Shown: one piece after another, positions 35,893 to 64,000 of the stretch
How the letters are laid out: each line of letters starts with the position of its first letter
Numbering within the stretch: the stretch's first letter is position 1
Assembly: GCA_052327205.1 (NCBI GenBank)
Contig: CM126211.1
Location: forward strand, 176,948,001-177,012,000
Origin: Somniosus microcephalus
Taxonomy: Eukaryota
DNA length: 64,000 nt
Direction: 5' to 3'
Notes under the pieces: model-generated
The model's database searches: none
What the model was told of the DNA's origin: nothing
The model's input: only the letters and a program-made list of their open reading frames with translations
Translations under genes and position numbers: made by a program

Positions 35893-36840
35893 AGAGAGCG
35901 CGTGCATGCGAGCGGGCGCGGAGAGAGAGAGAGCGAGGGCGGGGCGGAGAGAGAGAGAGAGAGCGAGGGCGGGGCGGAGAGAGAGAGCGCGCGAGGGGGC
36001 GGGGAGAGAGAGAGCGCGTGCGCGAGGGGGCGGGGCGCAGAGAGAGAGCGCGCGCGAGGGGGGGCCGCAGGGAGAGAGCGCGCGCGAGGGGGGGGCCGCA
36101 GGGAGAGAGCGCGCGCGCGAGGGGGGGGGCCGGAGGGAGAGAGCGCGCGCGAGGGGGGGGCCGCAGGGAGAGCGCGCGCGCGCGAGGGGGCGGGGGCGCA
36201 GGGAGAGAGCGCGCGCGAGGGGGCGGGGCCGCAGGGAGAGAGAGAGAGCGCGCGCGAGGGGGGGCGCCGCAGGGAGAGCGCGCGCGCGAGGGGGGCGCCG
36301 CAGGGAGAGCGCGCGCGCGCGAGAGGGGGCCGCAGGGAGAGCGCGCGAGGGGGCGGGGCGCAGGGAGCGCCCGCGCGCGAGGGGGCGGGGCGCAGGGAGC
36401 GCCCGCGCGCGAGGGGGCGGGGCGCAGGGAGCGCCCGCGCGCGAGGGGGCGGGGCGCAGGGAGCGCCCGCGCGCGAGGGGGCGGGGCGCAGGGAGCGCCC
36501 GCGCGCGAGGGGGCGGGGCGCAGGGAGCGCCCGCGCGCGAGGGGGCGGGGCGCAGGGAGCGCCCGCGCGCGAGGGGGCGGGGCGCAGGGAGCGCCCGCGC
36601 GCGAGGGGGCGGGGCGCAGGGAGCGCCCGCGCGCGAGGGGGCGGGGCGCAGGGAGCGCCCACGCGCGAGGGGGCGGGGCGCAGGGAGCGCCCGCGCGCGA
36701 GGGGGCGGGGCGCAGGGAGAGAGAGCACGCGAGGGGGCGGGGCGCAGGGAGAGAGCGCGCGCGAGGGGGCGGGGCGCAGGGAGAGAGAGCACGCGAGGGG
36801 GGGGCGCAGGGAGAGAGCGCGCGCGAGGGGGGGGGCCCCC
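35893..36840. repeat. GC-rich minisatellite with 11 near-perfect 32-bp units at 36361-36712
   Basis: Unit CAGGGAGCGCCCGCGCGCGAGGGGGCGGGGCG, flanked by degenerate (GA)n/(GC)n variants; no T on the + strand from 36020 to 36840. Confidence 0.95.
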
Positions 36841-39534
36841 TGTCATCGGTTGGTTCATCAGCTTCCGATGCTACTGTTTCTGGGGTAGATGCGACCTGTA
36901 CGTCGGGTTCATCCCCGTGACTCTAGGATCTGGTCAGCATGGCGTCTCACGATGCTCTCCCCAACGTCCACTGTGTACATTAGTGGGCCCTGCCGTGTGC
37001 ATATCGTTCCTGGCTGCCATTTTTCTGTTCGGTAGTCGCGGGCCAAGGCTGGTTGCCCTACATTGAAGCTCCTTGTTGGCTTCTCATGGATGTGCTGGAA
37101 TTGCTTACTCTCACCATCTCTTCGTACGTTTGGTCTGAGCAAATCCAGGCGAGATCTTAACCTTCGGTTAAAGAACATCATGGCTGGGGCCCGGTTGGTG
37201 ACTGCATGTGTCGCATTCCGGTAGGCGAACAGGAAATTGTCCACCTTGTGCTGCAGCGGAATGTTATCATTGTACATAGCCTTTATTGCCTTCTTAAAGG
37301 TTTGTACGAACCTCTCAGCCAATCCATTTGTGGCTGGACGATACGGGCGGATGTGTAATGCCTTACCCCATTCTTTTTCAAGAACCTCCGGAACTCTTCG
37401 GACACAAACTATGGTCCGTTGTCGGAGCAAATCTGTTCTGGCAAGCCATTCCTGGCAAAAATGGTCCGTAGGGCTGCAATAGTTTTCTCCGTGGTGGTGG
37501 AGGACATTTTGATGACCTCAGGCCATTTCGAGTGCGCATCCACAGCTATTAAAAACATTGAGTCCATGAATGGACCAGCAAAATCAATATGCACCCGTTG
37601 CCATGGAGATGAGGGCCACTCCCATGGGTGTAGAGGGGCCTGTGGTGGTGCATTTTGGACTTTCTGGCATCCTGAGCAGCTCTTGGTCAGGTCCTCGATT
37701 TGTTTATCGATTCCCAGCCACCACACATAAGCCCTGGCTAGGCTTTTCATTTTTACCCCTCCCAGATGACCCTCATGAAGCTCATTGAGCACTCTATCCC
37801 TTAACTTGGGTGGAATTACCACTCAGGATCCACACATCAAGGTCCCCCGGCACACTGACAGCTGTTCTCTCCTTGTCGAGAATGCTGGCAACAGTGAGTC
37901 GCCATGTGCTGGCCATCCCTTCACCGTCAAATCATATACCAGAGACAGTGTCGGGTCATTTCGGGTTTCCTTTTCGATACAAGCGTTAGTTACCGGTAGG
38001 TATTCAACTATAGTCAAATGGAATATTTCGACAGGATCCACTGCTGGTGCTTCCTCCGCAGTAGGCAGTGGCAGGCGTGATAGCCCATCAGCATTTCCAT
38101 GCTGTTTCGTGCCCTTATATTCAATCTCATAGTGGTGCGCCCCTAGAAAAAGTGACCATCTTTGTAGTCGTTGCGCAGTCATCACCGGAACGCCCTTCTT
38201 TGGATTAAAAATGAAGAGGCTGGTGATCAGTCAGCAAGGTGAATTTATGCCCGTGCAGATAGTGATTGAACTTTTTTACTCCCCACACTAGGCTGAGGGC
38301 CTCCCTGTCAATCTGGGCGTAGTTACGCTCGGCTGATGTTAGTGATCGTGACGCAAAGGCTATTGGCCTCTCTGAGCCGTCCGAGAATTTGTGCGACAGC
38401 ACCGCTCCAATGCCGTAGGGTGACGCACCACATGCCAACCGAATTGGTAATGCTGGGTTGTAATGGGCCAATACCTCTTTCGATGTGATTAGTGTTTTGC
38501 TCTTCTCGAAAGCTCGTCTACATTCGTCACTCCACTTCCATGGCACCCCAGTTTGCAGCAGGGTGTTCAGTGGGTGTAGTATTGTAGACAAATGTGGCAA
38601 GAACTTATGGTAGTAGTTTACCAGCCCGAGGAACAACCTCAGTTGTGACACATTTTCCGGTGCTGGAGCCTTGACTACTGCCTCAATCTTCTCTGCAGAC
38701 TTATGTAACCCCTCATTAGCGATAACGTGGCCACAATACGAGATCTGTTTTCTAAAAAACTCGCATTTGGGGCGGTTAGCTCGGAGCCCATATTCCTGCA
38801 ATCTAGTGAGCACCTGCTCCAGGTTGGCAAGGTGATCACTGTCATTTTCGCCCGTGACCAGGATGTCGTCCAAATAACACTGGGTCCCTGGGATCCCTTG
38901 CAGGACTTGTTCCATTGCCCTCTGCCAAATAGCCGGAGCTGATGCTACCCCGAATACCAGCCGGTTGTATTGGTAGAGACCTTTATGGGTGTTGATTGTG
39001 AGGTATTTTTTTGATGCTTCTTCTATCTCCATTTGCAGATACGCCTGGGCCAGATCAATCTTAGTGAAGCGTTTCCCTCCAGATAGCGAGGCGAAAATAT
39101 CTTCAATCCGCGGAAGTGGATATTGTACGGTGTGAAGGACCGGGTTCGCTGTTACCTTAAAGTCCCCACAGATGCGAACCTTCCTTGGTTCCCCAGGCGT
39201 GCTGCTCAACGACTTTTTCATCACAGGGACGATGGGTGTAGCCCACTCGCTCCAGTCTACCTTGGACAGTACACCTGAACGTTCCAGACTCTCCAGCTCC
39301 GCTTCGACGGCTGGGCGGATCGCATAAGGTCTGGCCTTAAAAAATTTGGGGCTTGCGTTTTCTTCAATTTTAATCGTCGCGGTCATGCCTTTTAGTGTTC
39401 CGAGTCCTTGCTGGAACACTTCTTTCACGTCAGTTAGGATCTTTGACAGTTGCCCAGGTGTGACATCGTCATCCTTTTTGTCAGCCACAGTCAGTGCCTG
39501 TATGGAATGCCAATCCAGTTGTATTTTCCGGATC
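36841..39534 (-). pseudogene. Gypsy pol: RT, RNase H, integrase (frameshifted)
   Basis: ORFs 38205.., 37823.., 37409.. and 36909..; RICGDFK, YLDD, ASPYGIGAVL, LHEGH..CSGC and HIDFAGP motifs. Confidence 0.93.
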
Positions 39535-39538
39535 CATT

Positions 39539-40110
39539 TGAGAATACCAAGGTCAAGGAAATAGAAACAAGAAACTGTGAAGGCAGCAAGAAGTAAAATA
39601 AAAAGGCTAAACTGATCTTTGGCTGCTAATATGGCTGGCGCCCACAATGTCACACCTTGCTGATAGGAACAATGTAAGGCAGCGTGCAGAAGTTATACAG
39701 ACAATAGGCGATCAGAAAACGCATTACCATGATTGCAAACGCATTACCATAATGTTTAGGTGATCGTGAACACATTACCAGGATGTTTACTTAGCTGTAA
39801 CCCATTCAGTTAAATGTGACTTCTTTATTTCAAACTGCCAGGCCAGGAAATCAAATTAAATGTATACGTGCACAGCTCAGGATTGGTGCAGGAATGTACG
39901 AGGTGTTAATGTCTTCTCAAATGCAAGTATAATAATGTAGCACACTGTATGAAAAATTGCTTGCTCTGTTGGGTTCGTCAGACTCTTGCAGGAGTCGGTG
40001 CCAACATTTCAGAGTAAGACTCCGCGGAAAATAAATCGTTTGAATTCTCCAGTTGCATTCGACTCAGTGATTACTGAACCAGACTGAGGGTAAAAGAATC
40101 CGTTCTATCA
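39539..40110 (+). promoter_or_regulatory. ERV 5' LTR
   Basis: Direct repeat of 46843-47414 with 3 mismatches by manual comparison; AATAAA at 40030-40035; U3 repeats AAACGCATTACCAT. Confidence 0.95.
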
Positions 40111-40112
40111 TT

Positions 40113-40130
40113 TGGTGTCAGAAGTGGGAT
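40113..40130 (+). other. Primer binding site, tRNA-Leu (CAA/CAG type)
   Basis: TGGTGTCAGAAGTGGGAT is the 18-nt complement of the vertebrate tRNA-Leu 3' end ATCCCACTTCTGACACCA. Confidence 0.9.
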
Positions 40131-40209
40131 CTCAACGGACAGTCACCGAGAGTTCGCGAACTAAGAGTTGAATCATCTCGGACGTGGAGAGAGGAAATGG
40201 GCCCCCGAT

Positions 40210-40215
40210 GTAAGT
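40210..40215 (+). promoter_or_regulatory. Probable ERV major splice donor
   Basis: GTAAGT consensus about 80 nt downstream of the PBS, the usual retroviral position. Confidence 0.6.
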
Positions 40216-40349
40216 AGTTTCTTGTACTACCTCGGTTTTCCTCTGATTCCGCCAGTCTGACGACGAGTCAGCCAATCGCTAACTCCTGTGTGGTGTCCCG
40301 CCGAGATCCAGGTCAGTCTGGCAAATACTGGAAGGGATAGGTGATTAGG

Positions 40350-40485
40350 TCAGTGATCGGATATCACTGAGGGTCAGTGATCGGATATCACTGAGGGTCA
40401 GTGATCGGATATCACTGAGGGTCAGTGATCGGATATCACTGAGGGTCAGTGATCGGATATCACTGAGGGTCAGTATACGTACTGA
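40350..40485 (+). repeat. Leader tandem hairpin array (5 x 24-nt period plus 1 variant)
   Basis: TCAGTGAT-CGGAT-ATCACTGA-GGG five times, then TCAGTA-TACG-TACTGA. Confidence 0.92.
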
Positions 40486-40624
40486 GGGAATAACTAGGAA
40501 CTGTGTAAACTTAGAAATAAGCACTTGTGTCAGGTAAAGAGCGTCGACCTCCTATATCACTTGGCCCGCCTAGGCTCTGAACAAGTTTAAAACGCGACTG
40601 TGTAAAGTTCACAAGGGGAGTAAG

Positions 40625-42680
40625 ATGGGCAACTGTTTAGATACCACGACTGAATCGGGTAGCGCCTTACAGACCCTTTGTGAACAACATCCTGACAAAG
40701 CAAAGCAACTTAGACAGTTGTCGGGAGGATTGAATAAGAAATTAGGAAGTGATCAATGGCCACTAGGAGGAACTAAGAATCTAGATGCCGCTAAAAAGGC
40801 TCAAGAACTAATTTGGAAAAGTAACAGGGGTACCACAGCCAAAGAACTAATTGCCCTATGGAGACAGTACTGTCAGGAACTGAAAGAAACTTCCTTGTTA
40901 GCAAGTTGGCAGGATAATGCCTTAAAATTAGGAATAGCACTTACAGGGGGAGGGGTAGTCAAATCAGTAGAGGTATTGAAAAAGGAATGCGCTCATGAGA
41001 AACGCTCAAAACAGGAGTCTGAAAAGACCACGAGCGAGCCTGGAAAGGCTGATAAGAGTGGATTACGTAATCCAATGGTTGGCCTTGCCTTGACAGAGGG
41101 AGATGGTGATGATGATTTGGACGAATGGAATCACAGGGCTCAGGTTGTTCCCACGCTCCCCCCCCCCCCCCGTATGTTAACATTTATCCCCCGGTGGCAC
41201 CCGCACCAGCTGCACAAACCCCCGCGCCGACACCAAGTATCTGCCAGTGCCGTTTCCCCGCCGCTGTCAGTCACGGTTCAGATGAACAGTCCCCCGCCGG
41301 TCCAGATGGGAGACCAACAACCGGGTCCCCAGTATACCGACCCTGTTGCCTTTTACACCCGACTCAGGACTAAGAATAATCGGCCCCCGACGACACCCTC
41401 CCCACCCCAACCCAGTCCATCAAGGTCACGAAAACGGAGAAATCAAAGGCAGATGATTCAAAGTCAGAGACTAGAGAGTCAGAGCCAGAGTACCCTCAAG
41501 GCTTTAAGGTCCTTTTTAGAGTGCCGGGACCATAGTGACATTGACAGTGGAGATTCAGGAGACGACTTGTCATCCCTGGAATCAGAATCTGATACCGAGA
41601 GACCCGCCAGACATAAACCGACACCCCGGCAGTTGCCGGTGAGACAAATGCCTAACCCTGCCTTTAACGCAAATATTCCAGTGGCCGCCGATAACCCCCG
41701 GACCATAGGTATCTTCTACCCCTGGAAACCTAACGAGATAATGGTTATCTTAGCCGGGATGCCAGATAGGAAGAAATCCCCCACCTTGTTTGTAGAATTC
41801 CTCCGGACTACTATACTCGTCTATAATGCTGAATCAAGAGACTTATGGGCGTTAGTACAGCAGATCTTGAATCCCGCCGAACATGCAAGGTTTTTGGTTA
41901 ACCTAGGCTTTGAGGACCATGCCACATTAGAGGCTCAAAACGCACAGAGTGCTGCTCGTGAACGCGCCATACTCACTGCTTTAACCACCACCCTGCAGAA
42001 ACCCATTGATATATCCAAGGGATACTAAACCACGAAAGGGCGAGGGAGCAGAGGAATTCCTAGAGAGATTCTCTGAGGTGTATCGGAGTCAGTCAGGAGA
42101 TGCTAATTACCGGAACGGAGCAAACTCGCCGCAATACTGTGCTATCCTGATAAATTGTCTACCAACCTCAGTGTCTGAAGCAATTAAGACTAACAATATG
42201 GACTGGTCAGAGAATAGTCCCAGCCAGATGGCCAGGGCAGTGAAATATTATTGGAAAGAGTAAGAGTCAGGAGAGTCAGCCCCAGGTCAAGGTCAAGACT
42301 GAGTACGTGATAAAAAAAGAGCCAAAGCCCACCCAAGATGTGATAGGGTATCAGACGGAGCCCAGTACTGCGTCCCAGGGTGGGTTGATAGACAAGGGTA
42401 CAGAGATACCAGCCATCCCAACGGACCAACCGTCCCTAATTATGGCCCACCCTACGCTCCCCCAAGACAAAATTTCGGCGATAGAGGAAGAGGAGGGAGG
42501 CAAGCAGGGTCAGATACCTGTTTTAATTGTGGCCAGCAAGGCCATTGGAGCAGGGAATGTCCCTCCCGAAGACAAGGAAGAGGGGGCCACATGCAAGGAC
42601 AACGGGGAGGTTGGCAGGGAAATCGGGGAGGAGGAAGATATACAGACTTCTCCCAGAATAATCCGTTTCCCCAGTACTGA
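40625..42680 (+). pseudogene. gag: ERV gag (frameshifted)
   Basis: MGNC myristoylation start; PPPPY late domain in a shifted frame at ~41160; MHR-like KPRKGEGAEEFLERF; NC knuckle CFNCGQQGHWSREC at 42519-42560; TGA at 42678-42680. Confidence 0.88.
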
Positions 42681-45600
42681 CTAGCCAACCTCGTGGCGAA
42701 CGGGTTCCAGTCGGACAAGGAGCCCGTTCTATCCCTGCTGATTGAAGGGAGCAGACATACCTTTCTGGTAGACACCGGAGCTATGTCATCTGTCCGATCA
42801 GAGCTCAATCTCCCTAAATCCGGGGAGACACAAAGCCTGTCCGGATTCCAAGGACAAGTGTGCCAGTACCCGATATCAGAACCAGTTGAAGTAGCATTTC
42901 AAAATGAGTCTGTGAAACACCAATTCGTGATCACAAATGGGCTGGATTGCAATCTCATGGCCAGAGACCGGTTATGTGCATTTCAACTAAGACTTGAGTG
43001 TGGGAACGAAGGAATAACTGTAAAACCATGGGCCCCTAAAAGACAATGTTACGTCTCTATCGCCCCACAATGGTGGACTCTGAACTTAAAAGATGAACCC
43101 CCATCTCATGTAACCCTAGCTTATGATCGAAGTGGGAAAGATAAGGAGTTGGAGAATTTTTACCAAGCTTATGAAGGGACTGAGTGGGATGTTGTTCTCC
43201 GAGCCATAGTTACGGGACCGGAGGGGAAAGCAGAATATGTTGAGGTTCCCTCGGAATTGTGGAAGCAACCCCTAACTGTAGCCCCACACATCACCCGGGA
43301 AGTGAACTCCCCCTGCCGTGCGGAAGATCTGGGACCCATGGTAAAACAGGCAGTTGAACAAGCTAACCCAGATGACCGGCGGGAGCAGGCCGTCAGGCGG
43401 TCGAGCTATCCTGTTATACCAAGAGCCAAAGGTAGTCTTGACACAGTTGCACCACCACGTTGGGAATGAGGTACCGGAATACGTCAATCCGCAAGTGTGG
43501 GCAGAAGACCCCACACAGGTAGGATGCGTTAAAATAACTCCAGCACGCCTTCTTCGCCTTGCCACTGGAACCGGCAAGCCAGTACCTCTTTGCTTTTACT
43601 TATAATGGACAACAATATACGTGGACCCGACTGCCGCAAGGCTTTGTAAACTCTCCAACATTATTCTCTAGGTGCCTACAAGGACAGTTGCAGACTTTGA
43701 CCTTGAAACATGGTTCTGCTCTGGTCCAGTACGTGGACGATTTGCTAATAGCTAGCCCTGACGAACAAAGTAACCGGGAAGACACCGCCCAGTTGCTTAA
43801 TCACCTATTCTCACTCGGGTACGTAGTCTCTCAATCAAAGGTACTAGTGGCCCAACAGAAAGTTAAATTCCTCGGCTTCATGCTCTCAGCAACCGAGCGG
43901 AGTCTAGAGAGAAGCAGGATTGAGCCAATCTGTCAGTTCCCCGTACCCCGTAGTGCAAAACAAGTGAGGCAATGGATGGGGATGGTAAACTACTGTAGAC
44001 AATGGATACCCAACATCGCTCTAGAAACCAAACGACTAACACCATACACCAGTATGGAGGGCGAGTTCCAGCTAGACCCTGTCGCCATAAGAGCGTTTGA
44101 AAACCTAAAAGAAGCATTGTCACAAGCCCCAGCACTGGGGAGACCCCTGTATGACAGGCCCTTCCAGCTATACTGCACTATCCTCACTGATTGTTCGACT
44201 GCTGTCCTAACGCAAAAACATGGGGACAAGCATAGGCCGGTGGCTTACTACTCCTCGAAGTTAGATCCGGTAGCGCTAGGGCATCCCGTATGCACCCAGA
44301 TTCTGACCGCCATCTATAATAGCCTACAATCGGCTGCCAACCTAACTTTGCAACAAGATATTACTGTATACAGTTTGCACTCGGTAACTGCACTATTAGG
44401 CCAATTACAAACTCAGCACCTCACTATGGCCCGACAAAATAAGTACGAGATATACCTGTTGAATAATCCTAAACTGCAATTTAAGCATTGTACTACTATC
44501 AACCCAGCATGTTTTCCTCACAGAACCACCCCTCGAACAAACAGACCCAGGACATGATTGTCTATTTTTAATCAAGGAAGATACCTCCATCAGGGAGGAT
44601 CTATCTGATGCCCCAATGCAGAGTCCTGACACAACCATGTATGTAGATGGAAGTGCGTCCGTCAGTCCCCTTGGGAAAAGACTTTCTGGATATGCAATCG
44701 TAGATCAGGACAGTAATACTTTGGAGTCTGCCGCCTTTGAACTTCCGTATTCCGCCCAACAAGCAGAACTGTTCGCATTAATACGAGCTTGTATCTTAGG
44801 GAAGGACTTAAAAGGTTAACGTTTATACAGACTCGAGATATGCCTTCGGAGTGGTTCATGATTTCAGACAATTATGGAAAAACAGAGGGTTCCTAACCTC
44901 TGCAGGAACACAGATATCCCATCAGAAATTAGTATCGGATTTGCTACAAGCCCTCATGCTACCAAAACAGATCTCCGTGATAAAGTGCTCCGCACACACA
45001 GCAGGACAAACCCCTGTAGATATAGGGAATAGATGCGCTGACCAGGGAGCAAGGGAAGCGTCCCAGGAACGACGAGTGGTTGTGCCTAGAATGATGAGCC
45101 AGACTAAAAGCTCAAATAAAAGCAAGTCTCCCTCGGAAAAGCCAATGCCAACCATCCAAGACGTCATTAAGTTACAGGAGGACGCTCCTGACCGTGATAG
45201 GGGACTGTGGAAACAGCTCGGTTGTACATATGATTGTGTGTCTAAATTATGGGTCACCCCTGCCGAGCAAACTTGTATGTCAGATGAGCTAGCATTATGG
45301 GTTATTGAATGTATACACTTTGCAACTCATTGTGGTGCCAGAGCAACTAGTGACACGTTATTAGCTACATGGTGGCATCCTAGATTACAAGCTCTGGCTC
45401 AAGGTATTAGCAGTCGCTGCCTCATTTGTCAGCAGCATAACCCGGGAAAAGGCATACCTTGTGAAACGGGTAAGACGCCGTTACCCACGGGTCCCTTTGA
45501 GACCCTCCAGATGGACTAAATTGAATTAGAAAGGTGTCAGTGTTATAAATATGTACTGGTTATTGTTGATGTATTTAGTAAGTAGATTGAGGCCTACCCG

Positions 45601-46299
45601 ACTACAGATAACAAAGCCTCCACTGTTGTAAAAGTTTTAAGGAGAGAAATTATTCCAAGGTACGGAATTCCAAACCGATTAAGTTCAGACAACGGCCCTC
45701 ACTTCGTGGGTCTGGTAAACAAGGAGTTCTGCACTCAAATGGGCATCCAACAGCAGCTACATTGTGCCTACAGGCCACAGGCCGCCGGACTGGTCGAGCG
45801 GGCTAATCAGACCTTGAAAAATAAACTTGCCAAATTACAGGCCGAGACGGGAACTACATGGCTCAAACTACTCCCCGTGGCCTTGTTCCAAATACGCACT
45901 ACCCCGGCTGGTGCAGCAAGATTAAGCCCTGCTGAAATCATATATGGCAGACCTCTCAAAACCCCGTGGAACCAGGAAGTCCCAAAGACTGTCCACTTTC
46001 ACCACATGACGGCAGAAATGACTAACTATATTTTGTCGTTAACCAGGGCATTGAAAAGTTTGCACTCCCGGGTACGCGCTGCTTACATCGACCTCCCTCC
46101 TATAGTCAGTCCGTCCCAGGTCGAGCCCGGAGCGTACGTATTAATCAAGAATTGGACGCGAAAAGGATTGGAACCTCGTTGGGAAGGACCCTATCAAGTC
46201 CTACTCACCACCCCAACTGCTGCCAAAGTAGAGGGAAAGAGTGCTTGGGTTCACCTCCACCACTGTAAAATTGTCAGTAATGCTATGCCTGAAACTTAA
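42681..46299 (+). pseudogene. pol: ERV pro-pol: protease, 2H-like domain, RT (N-terminal deletion), RNase H, integrase
   Basis: FLVDTGA; LPQGF..SP and YVDDLL; YVDGS, SAQQAEL, YTDSRY; H..TH/CLIC, SDNGPHF, VERAN, PRWEGPY. Stops at 45517 and 45583 and several frameshifts. Confidence 0.93.
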
Positions 46300-46346
46300 A
46301 GAACGCTAACCTCTCTTGCTTCCAAGAAATCTCTCCCTAAACAGAC

Positions 46347-46805
46347 ATGCAGACGTCGCTGTGGATCCTCTCTATCAGTGTCCTGATCACCCTTGGAATA
46401 ACTCAACAGCCCAGAATGAGAACATGCCGGCGGAACCAACCCAAGCGGGTACACCACCTATGCCACGAAGACGTGCTTCGGTGCAATGATGATAACCGAG
46501 GCGGGTTCGGGAAATGGAACGTGATCAACTGGGACACCTACATTGGGCTTATTAGACAGCCCCACCGCTCGCTAATGCTGAGATACATACACAGAGGAAC
46601 ATTGCCATGCCATTGGACCAAGTGTAAATTTGATTACGTCTGTCGACGCCAGGTGACCAAGTCTGTTACTGCAGGACCATGCAACAGAACTACCGATACC
46701 AAAGGACAAAGCTGTTATCCGAAGTCCAACCAGGAAAGGAAAAGAAATGGGCTGCCCCCTTTGAAAGAATTTGATCGACTAAATAAAATAGACGTAACCG
46801 AATAA
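46347..46805 (+). CDS. 152-aa signal-peptide, Cys-rich ORF in the env position (accessory protein or internally deleted env)
   Basis: ATG start, hydrophobic N-terminus LWILSISVLITLGI, 8 Cys, one NRT sequon, no TM segment. Upstream CTAAC, pyrimidine tract and CAG. Confidence 0.6.
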   Translation: MQTSLWILSISVLITLGITQQPRMRTCRRNQPKRVHHLCHEDVLRCNDDNRGGFGKWNVINWDTYIGLIRQPHRSLMLRYIHRGTLPCHWTKCKFDYVCRRQVTKSVTAGPCNRTTDTKGQSCYPKSNQERKRNGLPPLKEFDRLNKIDVTE

Positions 46806-46830
46806 CGGTTGGTTATCATAGAATGATGAT

Positions 46831-46842
46831 AAAAGGAGGGAA
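46831..46842 (+). other. Polypurine tract
   Basis: AAAAGGAGGGAA immediately before the TG of the 3' LTR. Confidence 0.9.
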
Positions 46843-47414
46843 TGAGAATACCAAGGTCAAGGAAATAGAAACAAGAAACTGTGAAGGCAGCAAGAAGTAA
46901 AATAAAAAGGCTAAACTGATCTTTGGCTGCTAATATGGCTGGCGCCCACAATGTCACACCTTGCTGATAGGAACAGTGTAAGGCAGCGTGCAGAAGTTAT
47001 ACAGACAATAGGCGATCAGAAAACGCATTACCATGATTGCAAACGCATTACCATAATGTTTAGGTGATCGTGAACACATTACCAGGATGTTTACTTAGCT
47101 GTAACCCATTCAGTTAAATGTGACTTCTTTATTTCAAACTGCCAGGCCAGGAAATCAAATTAAATGTATACGTGCACAGCTCAGGATTGGTGCAGGAATG
47201 TACGAGGTGTTAATGTCTTCTCAAATGCAAGTATAATAATGTAGCACACTGTATGAAAAATTGCTTGCTCTGTTGGGTTCCTCAGACTCTTGCAGGAGTC
47301 GGTGCCAACATTTCAGAGTAAGACTCCGCGGAAAATAAATCGTTTGAATTCTCCAGTTGCATTCGACTCAGTGATTACTGAACCAGACTGAGGGTAAAAG
47401 AATCCGTTCTACCA
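46843..47414 (+). promoter_or_regulatory. ERV 3' LTR
   Basis: 572-bp copy of the 5' LTR; AATAAA at 47334-47339. Confidence 0.95.
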
Positions 47415-47418
47415 CATT

Positions 47419-48530
47419 CATGTCCCAGTAATGGTGATCCTCCATCTTGCAATACATACAGGTCTAGTTTTGGTGTTTCCTTACCGTTATATATAACGGT
47501 CACCCTTATTTTTCCTTTGGGGTAGACTTTTTGCCCCGTGTACGTCTTCAAAATAATTTTTGTGTCTCTCAAGGGTATGTGTGAGAATAGCCGCTCGTAG
47601 TCCCGTCGGTTTATGACTGTTAGGGCTGATCCTGTGTCCAATTCCATCTTTACCTGGACTCCTGCTATCTTGAGAGTGACCCAAATGGTTCGGTGATCCT
47701 CCGTTGTGATCACATTATGTAGTTTCAGACAACTCAGTTCCCTGCTTTCGGAGTCGTTATCACTCTTTTGTTCGTCTGAACTATTCTCCGTCATCCTATG
47801 TACCTTCTTGTACTTTTCTTTGGTAGGTTTCTTATTGCTGGTTTTCTTTCCCAACCTGCAGACTCGTGCTATGTGTCCTACTTTTCCCACACTGTCTGCA
47901 CACTTTGTCTTTGAACCAGCAATCATTCTGGTCCTGTGCTGTTCTGCCGCAGCGATAGCACTTCGCTGTTCTATATGACATTTTGTTTGTGCCATATTCT
48001 TGCGGTCTCTGTTGTATCTCTGCAGCGCCCCGTGCTGCTGCTTCATATGATACCACAATGCTGAAAGCCTTTTCCAGCGTAAGGTCCTTTTCAGATAAAA
48101 GCCGTTTCTGGGTTCCTTCACTTTGAAGCCCACACACAAACTTGTCCCTTAAGGTATCTGCCAGTCCCGCTCCAAACTGGCAGTGTTTCGATAGTTTGCG
48201 CAGTTCTGTTAAATAATTAGCATTGCTTTCATCCTTATGCTGGTTCCGTTTGTGAAACTTGAATCTTTCTGCTATCATCAGCGGTGTGGGGTTTAAATGT
48301 TCCTGTAGTATCGTTACTATGTCTTCAAAACACTTTTCCATTGGCTTCGTTGGGGCTACTAGATTTTGTAATAAACCATACGTCTTTGCACCCATTAAAT
48401 TTAACAATACCGACGCTTTCTTGTCATCTGACACCTCATTTGCCTTGCAGTATACCTCTATTCGTTCGACATATGTAGTCCAATCTTCAACTTCATTGTC
48501 AAATGCGGTGATACTGCCACTCTTCGGCAT
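47419..48530 (-). pseudogene. Gypsy gag and protease (frameshifted)
   Basis: ORFs 47832..48530 and 47375..48139; MELDTGS and LKTYTG motifs. Confidence 0.9.
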
Positions 48531-63209: not shown

Positions 63210-64000
63210 CAGGTAGACTACCCTTTATCCGGACTTCCGAAAACCGAAACCCTCTAAAAACCGAAGGTTTTTTCGTTCAGCGTAAGTCGTGCGTACGAAC
63301 GAAAAAACCTTCGGTTTTTAGAGGGTTCCGGTTTCGGAAGTTCGGATAAAGGGTAAGTCGTGCGCACGACCCCCCGCCGACCCCCCCGCGGACCCCGCCG
63401 GCCCCGACAACCGCCGGCCCCGACAACCGCCGACCCCGACAACCGCCGATCCCCCGCGGACCCCGCCGGCCCCGACAACCGCCGATCCCCCCCGCGGACC
63501 CCGCCAGCCCCGACAACCGCCGACCCCCCCAGCCCCGACAACCGCCGACCCCCCCGCGGACCCCGCCGGCCCCGACAACCGCCGACCCCGACAACCGCCG
63601 ACCCCCCCCCGCGGACCCCACCGGCCCCGACAACCGCCGACCCCGCCAACCGCCGATCCCCCCCGCCGACCCCCCCGCGGACCCCGCCGGCCCCGACAAC
63701 CGCCGACCCCGACAACCGCCGAACCAGCCCCGACAACCGCCGAACCCCCCCGCCAGCCCCGACAACCGCCGACCCCCCCGCGGACCCCGACAACCGCCAG
63801 CCCCGACAACCGCCGACCCCCCCGCGGACCCCGCCGGCCTCGACCCCCGCCAACCCCGACTGACTTACGCTGAGCGTCAGCGTAAGTCGTGCGCACGACC
63901 CCCCGCCGACCCCCCCCCGCGGACCCCCGCCGACCCACCTTCCGAAATCCGAAATTCTCCTTTATCCGAAACTCGGCTGGTCCCGAGGTTTTCGGATAAA
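63210..64000. mobile_element. Tigger/pogo-like MITE with internal palindromes and minisatellite (runs past the window end)
   Basis: TA|CAGGTAGACTACCCTTTATCCG left TIR; the window ends in TGGTCCCGAGGTTTTCGGATAAA, the start of the complementary right TIR. Confidence 0.75.
63367..63860. repeat. C-rich minisatellite
   Basis: Interspersed CCCCGACAACCGCCGA and CCCCCCGCGGACCCCGCCGG units. Confidence 0.92.

What the first reader, a model, noticed from the sequence alone, without database searches (positions are those of the whole stretch)
40350..40485. Array of six stem-loops in the ERV leader, the last with compensatory changes
Seen: five identical hairpins TCAGTGAT[CGGAT]ATCACTGA with a 24-nt period and GGG spacers, then TCAGTA[TACG]TACTGA, whose sequence differs but still pairs and has a UNCG-type loop. 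The array lies between the splice donor and the gag ATG. Known: this is where retroviral psi and dimerisation signals sit, so it would be absent from spliced RNA. Inference: an amplified packaging or dimerisation module could let a coding-defective genome compete for helper Gag, like a defective-interfering element. It is not CRISPR-like because there are no variable spacers.
Basis: partly seen in the sequence, partly recalled or inferred. Interest (0 to 1): 0.7.

Follow-up and report, generated by a model that had tools for sequence, protein, structure and literature searches.

The report
Unstable hairpin repeat in retrovirus leader
A short hairpin-forming sequence in the front end of an endogenous retrovirus family is repeated 1 to 24 times in different copies; the long arrays grow in the host's own DNA after the virus has inserted, so the five repeats seen here are likely a copying by-product of a small module that may help packaging, not an amplified weapon of defective genomes.

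Summary
The array is real (5 identical 24-nt units plus one shorter hairpin, 40350-40485), but it is a variable-number repeat of a young class I ERV family with at least 170 copies. Of 77 insertion groups, 63 carry 1-3 units. All 10 arrays of 5 or more units are separate, private expansions on the leader tree. One insertion multiplied by host DNA duplication carries 3-24 units, so length changes after integration. No compensatory change occurs among 425 units, and the longest arrays are mostly stem-broken units. As RNA the five units are predicted to fold into one nested rod (six hairpins only as single-stranded DNA or as a folding intermediate). A sister family, 80% alike, lacks the module in 10 of 10 copies but has its own unrelated 1-4x hairpin repeat; covariation lies in the upstream U5-PBS-donor stem instead. 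Leader repeats are known from zebrafish ZFERV, and this scan noted a similar array in another genome. Verdict: ordinary minisatellite instability on a plausible accessory packaging element.

The parts
39535..39538 (+). 5' target-site duplication (4 nt), repeated at 47415-47418
39539..40110 (+). 5' LTR, 572 nt, TG...CA; 3 mismatches to the 3' LTR
40064..40077 (+). U5 hairpin, near-palindrome, same outer 5 bp as the array units; stem kept with a changed loop in the sister family
40113..40130 (+). primer binding site (tRNA-Leu type, assignment recalled, not tested)
40085..40320 (+). long leader stem shared with the sister family; 6 of 91 predicted pairs change on both sides, 99.3% of cells pair; holds a conserved GGGCCC palindrome (40199-40204) and the donor
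   Evidence: limits approximate
40210..40216 (+). predicted splice donor
   Evidence: use not shown
40331..40503 (+). family-specific segment holding the whole array, bounded by a 4-nt direct repeat, absent from the sister family
40350..40469 (+). five identical 24-nt units (8-bp stem, 5-nt loop, GGG linker); 1-24 units in other copies
40470..40485 (+). terminal hairpin, near-palindromic, predicted self-dimer (-6.9 kcal/mol against two monomers)
40625..42680 (+). gag, broken into several frames; zinc knuckle in the last piece
42681..46299 (+). pro-pol, broken by stops, frameshifts and a deletion of about 0.3 kb; MLV-like RT and integrase C-terminus
46347..46805 (+). env remnant: first 138 codons of the family's 626-codon 3' ORF, then a deletion of about 1.4 kb
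46828..46842 (+). polypurine tract
46843..47414 (+). 3' LTR

Best explanation
The array is a variable-number minisatellite in the leader of an endogenous retrovirus family: copies carry 1-24 units in front of one terminal hairpin, long arrays change length in host DNA after integration, and the five units here are likely a neutral expansion of a 1-3-unit module that would act as an accessory packaging or dimer element. Shown: copy-number range, low numbers shared within clades, high numbers private, length change among host duplicates of one insertion, no covariation, absence from the sister family. Inferred: the first duplication came from slippage or template switching at the 7-nt sequence shared by the starts of unit and terminal hairpin; DNA hairpins then promote slippage or unequal exchange; the basic module binds Gag or helps dimerisation (from position and analogy to MLV only, about even odds).
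For: 63 of 77 insertion groups have 1-3 units. One-unit state clusters on the leader tree (14 rows, 8 changes, 0 of 500 shuffles as low), whereas 10 rows with 5 or more units need 10 changes. 18 copies on contig C42 share flanks (16 with a 3' flank recovered: 98.4-100% over about 800 nt) yet carry 3-24 units with new variants and higher-order repeats; a second duplicate pair has 10 and 11 units of different make-up. 0 compensatory changes in 425 units; 20 of 26 loop events are CpG-type. 51 of 77 units in arrays of 10 or more are stem-broken against 7 of 126 in arrays of 1-3 (these come from 3 of 5 loci). Best single-stranded DNA fold is six serial hairpins. Partial-unit and whole-module duplications exist. 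Sister family lacks the module, 10 of 10. Groups with an unbroken gag (8 of 77) or pol frame (5 of 77) do not differ in unit number (p 0.31, 0.64).
Against: Unit number correlates with defectiveness across groups: longest pol frame rho -0.40 (p<0.001), gag-env span rho -0.36 (p 0.002); RT-deleted lineage has 3 or more units in 16 of 23 against 14 of 51 (p 0.0009). Unit number does not rise with LTR divergence (rho -0.06, n 58), as steady post-integration growth would predict. Only host duplicates show post-integration change directly; for the window's own five units it is inferred. The family is too young (median LTR divergence 1.06%) for covariation to have much power. The sister family has its own 1-4x hairpin repeat, which hints at function of repeated hairpins as a class.
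Confidence: 0.72

Rival explanations
1. Defective-interfering advantage: extra hairpins raise Gag avidity, so coding-defective genomes with more units were packaged and re-inserted more often.
For: Trans-mobilisation is shown: one 1.8-kb RT deletion at 23 insertion groups, scattered over the leader tree (10 changes for 22 rows), also seen as a joint in RNA reads and contigs. Median 3 against 2 units (p 0.002). Independent pairs lean the same way (2.6 same, 0.6 opposite of 5).
Against: Pairs test not significant (median p 0.625); a 3-unit founder would explain the shift. No enrichment for 5 or more units (4 of 23 against 6 of 51, p 0.49). No long array founded new insertions. The three sisters sharing the window's env deletion have 1, 2 and 2 units. 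At equilibrium extra units are predicted to collapse into one rod, not to add loops.
Confidence: 0.12
2. The whole module, including the single unit and terminal hairpin, is functionless filler in a length-tolerant spacer; packaging and dimerisation rest on the conserved upstream stem and its palindromes.
For: Sister family multiplied to a similar share (10 against 9 of the 100 PBS sites listed) without it; covariation sits upstream; the U5 near-palindrome is predicted to dimerise more strongly than the terminal hairpin; terminal hairpin probability in the whole leader is only 0.26.
Against: No copy examined lacks all units (sample biased by how it was chosen); units in short arrays are 119 of 126 paired; the module is kept in contigs of other organism labels whose gag differs by about 13% (difference tables cut); both families have a repeated hairpin in this interval. 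This rival is compatible with the neutral-expansion part of the best explanation.
Confidence: 0.35
3. The units act as DNA: tandem palindromic sites for a dimeric transcription factor or insulator protein, as in leader repeats of some LTR retrotransposons (recalled).
For: Perfect 8-bp inverted half-sites with fixed spacing; the same half-site occurs in U5.
Against: No binding data; arm-breaking variants spread freely; absent from the sister family.
Confidence: 0.1
4. Assembly artefact.
For: Short reads cannot span the five units.
Against: 101 copies with graded lengths and diagnostic unit variants; raw RNA reads and contigs from other runs hold it.
Confidence: 0.01

Closest known systems
Zebrafish ZFERV repeat region (PMC3382231, passages read; bioRxiv 10.1101/2021.01.21.427598, passages read)
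   Same: Fish class I ERV with a block of direct repeats (517 bp, 9 repeats), listed between the 5' LTR and gag-pol in the figure legend; exact leader position recalled from the original paper, which was not held.
   Different: Unit about 57 nt against 24 nt; the passages seen give no fold, copy-number range or function; no sequence comparison was made here.
MLV dimer linkage / core packaging signal SL-A to SL-D (PMC5874298, passages read)
   Same: Several hairpins in the 5' leader; palindromic hairpins that convert to intermolecular duplexes; the terminal loop TACG differs from the GACG loop by one base and keeps the CG.
   Different: No GACG loop, only one NACG hairpin, stems 6-8 bp, no sequence likeness, variable tandem number, not conserved in the sister family.
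Host minisatellites / VNTRs (general knowledge)
   Same: 10-60 nt unit, hypervariable number, variant units in runs, higher-order repeats, change among duplicated loci.
   Different: Carried by a retrovirus, so low copy numbers are also inherited through RNA.
Defective-interfering or trans-packaged retroviral genomes (template switching and co-packaging: PMC5086612, passages read; VL30-type elements recalled)
   Same: A deleted lineage spread in trans and recombined with helpers.
   Different: No evidence that it outcompetes by repeat number.

Membership tests
Class I (gamma/epsilon-like) endogenous retrovirus | LTRs, PBS, PPT, short target duplication | tested here: met
Class I (gamma/epsilon-like) endogenous retrovirus | RT and integrase closest to MLV type | tested here: met
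   MLV-type RT E 2e-69 against foamy 5e-32 and Ty3 4e-22; MLVIN_C
Class I (gamma/epsilon-like) endogenous retrovirus | env with immunosuppressive-domain-like motif and membrane anchor | tested here: met
   626-codon ORF in 7 copies; motif at 487 and hydrophobic stretch at 552 in the one inspected (motif pattern recalled)
Epsilonretrovirus-like clade specifically | phylogenetic placement with walleye/fish viruses | not tested
   no reference sequences at hand
Gammaretroviral double-hairpin packaging signal | two hairpins with GACG tetraloops | tested here: not met
   loops are CGGAT and TACG
Gammaretroviral double-hairpin packaging signal | palindromic hairpin able to form an extended intermolecular duplex | tested here: met
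   predicted only: terminal hairpin dimer -6.9 kcal/mol against monomers
Gammaretroviral double-hairpin packaging signal | conserved by covariation across relatives | tested here: not met
   0 of 425 units; absent in 10 of 10 sister copies
Gammaretroviral double-hairpin packaging signal | downstream of a used splice donor | tested here: inconclusive
   GT kept in 97 of 100 copies; no joint listed in RNA
Gammaretroviral double-hairpin packaging signal | binds NC/Gag and is needed for packaging | not testable with these tools
   needs experiment
Minisatellite / VNTR | tandem 10-60 nt unit with variable number among copies | tested here: met
Minisatellite / VNTR | length change in host DNA | tested here: met
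Defective-interfering genome | defective and replicated in trans | tested here: met
   shared deletions at independent sites, including the window's env deletion in 4 groups
Defective-interfering genome | advantage over helper due to the amplified element | tested here: inconclusive
cUNCGg tetraloop | C-G closing pair (recalled) | tested here: not met
   closing pair is A-U

The most novel reading that the evidence does not exclude
Repeated leader hairpins are a tunable packaging signal in this ERV clade: two sister families independently evolved unrelated hairpin repeats (1-3 and 1-4 copies) between donor and gag, and the RT-deleted lineage that spread in trans was selected for a third unit, a natural defective-interfering arms race recorded in the germ line.
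Probability: 0.12. Interest if true: 0.65.

Novelty: new member of a known kind. Interest (0 to 1): 0.3.

Why it matters
It shows how to read repeat arrays in ERV leaders: length in a provirus can be a host-DNA mutation record, not viral design, and host duplicates of one insertion give a built-in control. The family also offers a natural series (1-24 units, helper and deleted genomes, a sister family with another hairpin) for the little-studied packaging signals of fish-type retroviruses. If copy number did tune packaging, it would be a germ-line record of defective-interfering competition.

Tried and rejected
Rfam scan of 39500-41000: one chance hit, E 3.1. ADAR editing as source of unit variants: A>G 13 against T>C 9 group-events, no asymmetry. 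The 154-codon 3' ORF as a novel secreted protein: no Pfam hit, it is an env remnant. Age as driver of length: no correlation. Splice joint in RNA: none listed, depth low and tables cut. No RNA holder was listed by index; two raw RNA runs under a holder's species label were laid instead. A third related family to tell gain from loss of the module: none among 90 PBS loci. A genome-wide list of long arrays was not obtained, so 70 of 170 pattern matches were not examined and long arrays may be under- or over-counted. Flank group L101/L129/L130 shares a 3' flank (97.5-97.8%) but differs in leader, so it was not relied on. Literature: 10 searches found no description of this family or of copy-number variation in ERV leader hairpins; the original ZFERV paper was not held; no supplements were read, and ERV catalogues in supplements could hold the family. 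CRISPR-like array: no spacers, rejected.

Full report
Observation. The array is at the stated place: five identical 24-nt units from 40350 and a 16-nt terminal hairpin at 40470-40485. As RNA the best fold is not six hairpins. Every 5' arm can pair with every 3' arm, so the five units nest into one rod (-60.9 against -49.3 kcal/mol; probability 0.95-0.99 alone or in the leader). Natural one-unit copies fold as two hairpins; most copies with two or more units fold as rods. Six serial hairpins are the best fold with DNA parameters, and could be a transient RNA state (barrier at most 14.7 kcal/mol). The terminal loop is closed by A-U, so it is not the stable UNCG type (rule recalled).

Context. 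The array lies in a provirus at 39539-47414 with 572-nt LTRs differing at 3 sites, a 4-nt target duplication, a PBS and a PPT. RT and integrase are MLV-like. In this copy gag and pol are broken by frameshifts, stops and a small deletion, and env has lost about 1.4 kb. Earlier scan notes call the host a cartilaginous fish (not tested here). Epsilon-like ERVs are known from elephant shark (PMC4422223, first of two parts read; PMC4977317, passages). With the neutral rates quoted in PMC4422223, 0.5% LTR divergence gives about 1-12 million years.

Family survey. The terminal hairpin with its flank matches 170 places (up to 1 mismatch, control 0). I fetched 97 of the 100 listed (dropping the window and two near-duplicates on C7) plus 3; with the window, 101 copies in 77 flank groups (76 after one merge; 15 copies gave no flank and count singly). 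Because the sample was chosen by the terminal hairpin, its constancy (97 of 101 identical) is circular. Units per group: 1 in 15, 2 in 31, 2.5 in 1, 3 in 16, 4 in 4, 5 or more in 10. Median LTR divergence is 1.06% (58 groups).

Where length changes. Eighteen copies on C42 are one insertion multiplied with its flanks (16 with 3' flank recovered, 98.4-100% over about 800 nt). They carry 3-24 units, with shared end variants, new internal variants and higher-order repeats. No reverse transcription is needed for this. On a tree of leader and 5' gag without the array (73 rows; two long-branch rows and one without a PBS left out), the one-unit state is clustered (14 rows, 8 changes, 0 of 500 shuffles), three or more units weakly so (31 rows, 20 changes, 27 of 500), and five or more not at all (10 rows, 10 changes). 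So low numbers travel with the virus and high numbers are private. The three other insertions with the window's env deletion have 1, 2 and 2 units.

Covariation. Among 425 units none has a double compensatory change. The commonest variant keeps a wobble pair (8 groups), the next breaks a pair (4 groups), and the loop excess is CpG decay. Three of the longest arrays consist mostly or wholly of stem-broken units: 51 of 77 units in arrays of 10 or more, against 7 of 126 in arrays of 1-3. The family is young, so this test has little power on its own.

Sister family. Sampling 90 of the first 100 of 1243 PBS matches gave 10 copies of a sister family, about 80% alike in leader and 70-72% in Gag. All 10 lack 40331-40503, which is bounded by a 4-nt repeat. 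They carry instead 1-4 copies of an unrelated 19-nt bulged hairpin further downstream. Between the two families the upstream U5-PBS-donor region keeps a long stem: 6 of 91 pairs change on both sides, 99.3% of cells pair, slid controls give 0-3 such pairs; the shuffle control for pair count is not significant (73 of 500), the structure was derived from this alignment, and two lineages are in effect one comparison. This conserved region, with a GGGCCC palindrome and the U5 near-palindrome, is the better candidate for the core signal.

One 1.8-kb deletion in RT occurs at 23 insertion groups, scattered across leader backgrounds, and is seen in RNA reads and contigs: defective genomes were packaged in trans and recombined. 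They have a median of 3 units against 2 (p 0.002; three or more in 16 of 23 against 14 of 51), and unit number correlates with shorter pol frames (rho -0.40). On independent pairs the direction holds but is not significant (5 pairs, median p 0.625), and five or more units are not enriched (4 of 23 against 6 of 51). The terminal hairpin is predicted to form an intermolecular duplex, like the palindromic SL-A/SL-B of MLV, and its loop is one base from GACG (PMC5874298, passages). Contigs from other organism labels keep the module, and loose ends suggest the terminal hairpin is itself tandemly repeated there (inferred from cut tables).

Mechanism. Shown: variable number, post-integration change, private long arrays, trans-mobilisation, absence in the sister. 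Inferred: first duplication by slippage or template switching at the 7 nt shared by unit and terminal starts (such switching is known to give duplications, PMC5086612, passage); growth by hairpin-aided slippage or unequal exchange in host DNA; an accessory packaging or dimer role for the basic module (about even odds).

Known counterparts. ZFERV has a 517-bp region of 9 direct repeats (PMC3382231; bioRxiv 2021.01.21.427598; passages only). An earlier scan note reports a tandem hairpin array in another ERV leader (e1-7858707; unchecked); none matched this sequence. Ten paper searches found no account of this family. Verdict: new member of a known kind, interest 0.3.

Noticed in passing
window 40085-40320: Long leader stem with compensatory changes between two sister ERV families, holding the PBS, a conserved GGGCCC palindrome and the donor; likely the core packaging/dimer domain.
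   Followed up: partly
L151:1930-2060 (approx.) and nine other sister copies: Sister family has an unrelated 19-nt bulged hairpin in 1-4 copies (32- and 58-nt periods) between donor and gag.
   Followed up: partly
window 42991-44483 (joint): A 1.8-kb RT deletion shared by 23 independent insertion groups and present in RNA reads: a non-autonomous lineage spread by co-packaging and recombination. A 294-nt integrase deletion is shared by 9 groups.
   Followed up: partly
G000 contig C42 (L110-L127): One provirus with its flanks multiplied at least 18 times over about 40 Mb of one contig, a large host duplicon family.
   Followed up: partly
window 46347-46805: Several independent env deletions keep the signal peptide and about 130-160 codons open; a secreted truncated Env is possible but untested.
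   Followed up: no
window 38205-39534 and 47419-48148, minus strand: The provirus interrupts the pol frame (RT, RNase H) of another LTR retrotransposon, probably Ty3/gypsy type.
   Followed up: no
window 40064-40072: U5 holds 9 nt complementary to the 3' arm of each unit, allowing an alternative long-range pairing or a common origin.
   Followed up: partly
window 35937-36836: GC-rich 32-nt minisatellite, 28 copies, strong strand skew.
   Followed up: no
window 63370-63955: C-rich complex tandem repeat with 12-, 37- and 66-nt periods.
   Followed up: no
L131-L160 and L191-L250: At least four other LTR families share this exact PBS (1243 matches in the genome); one has overlapping hairpins just after the PBS.
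   Followed up: no
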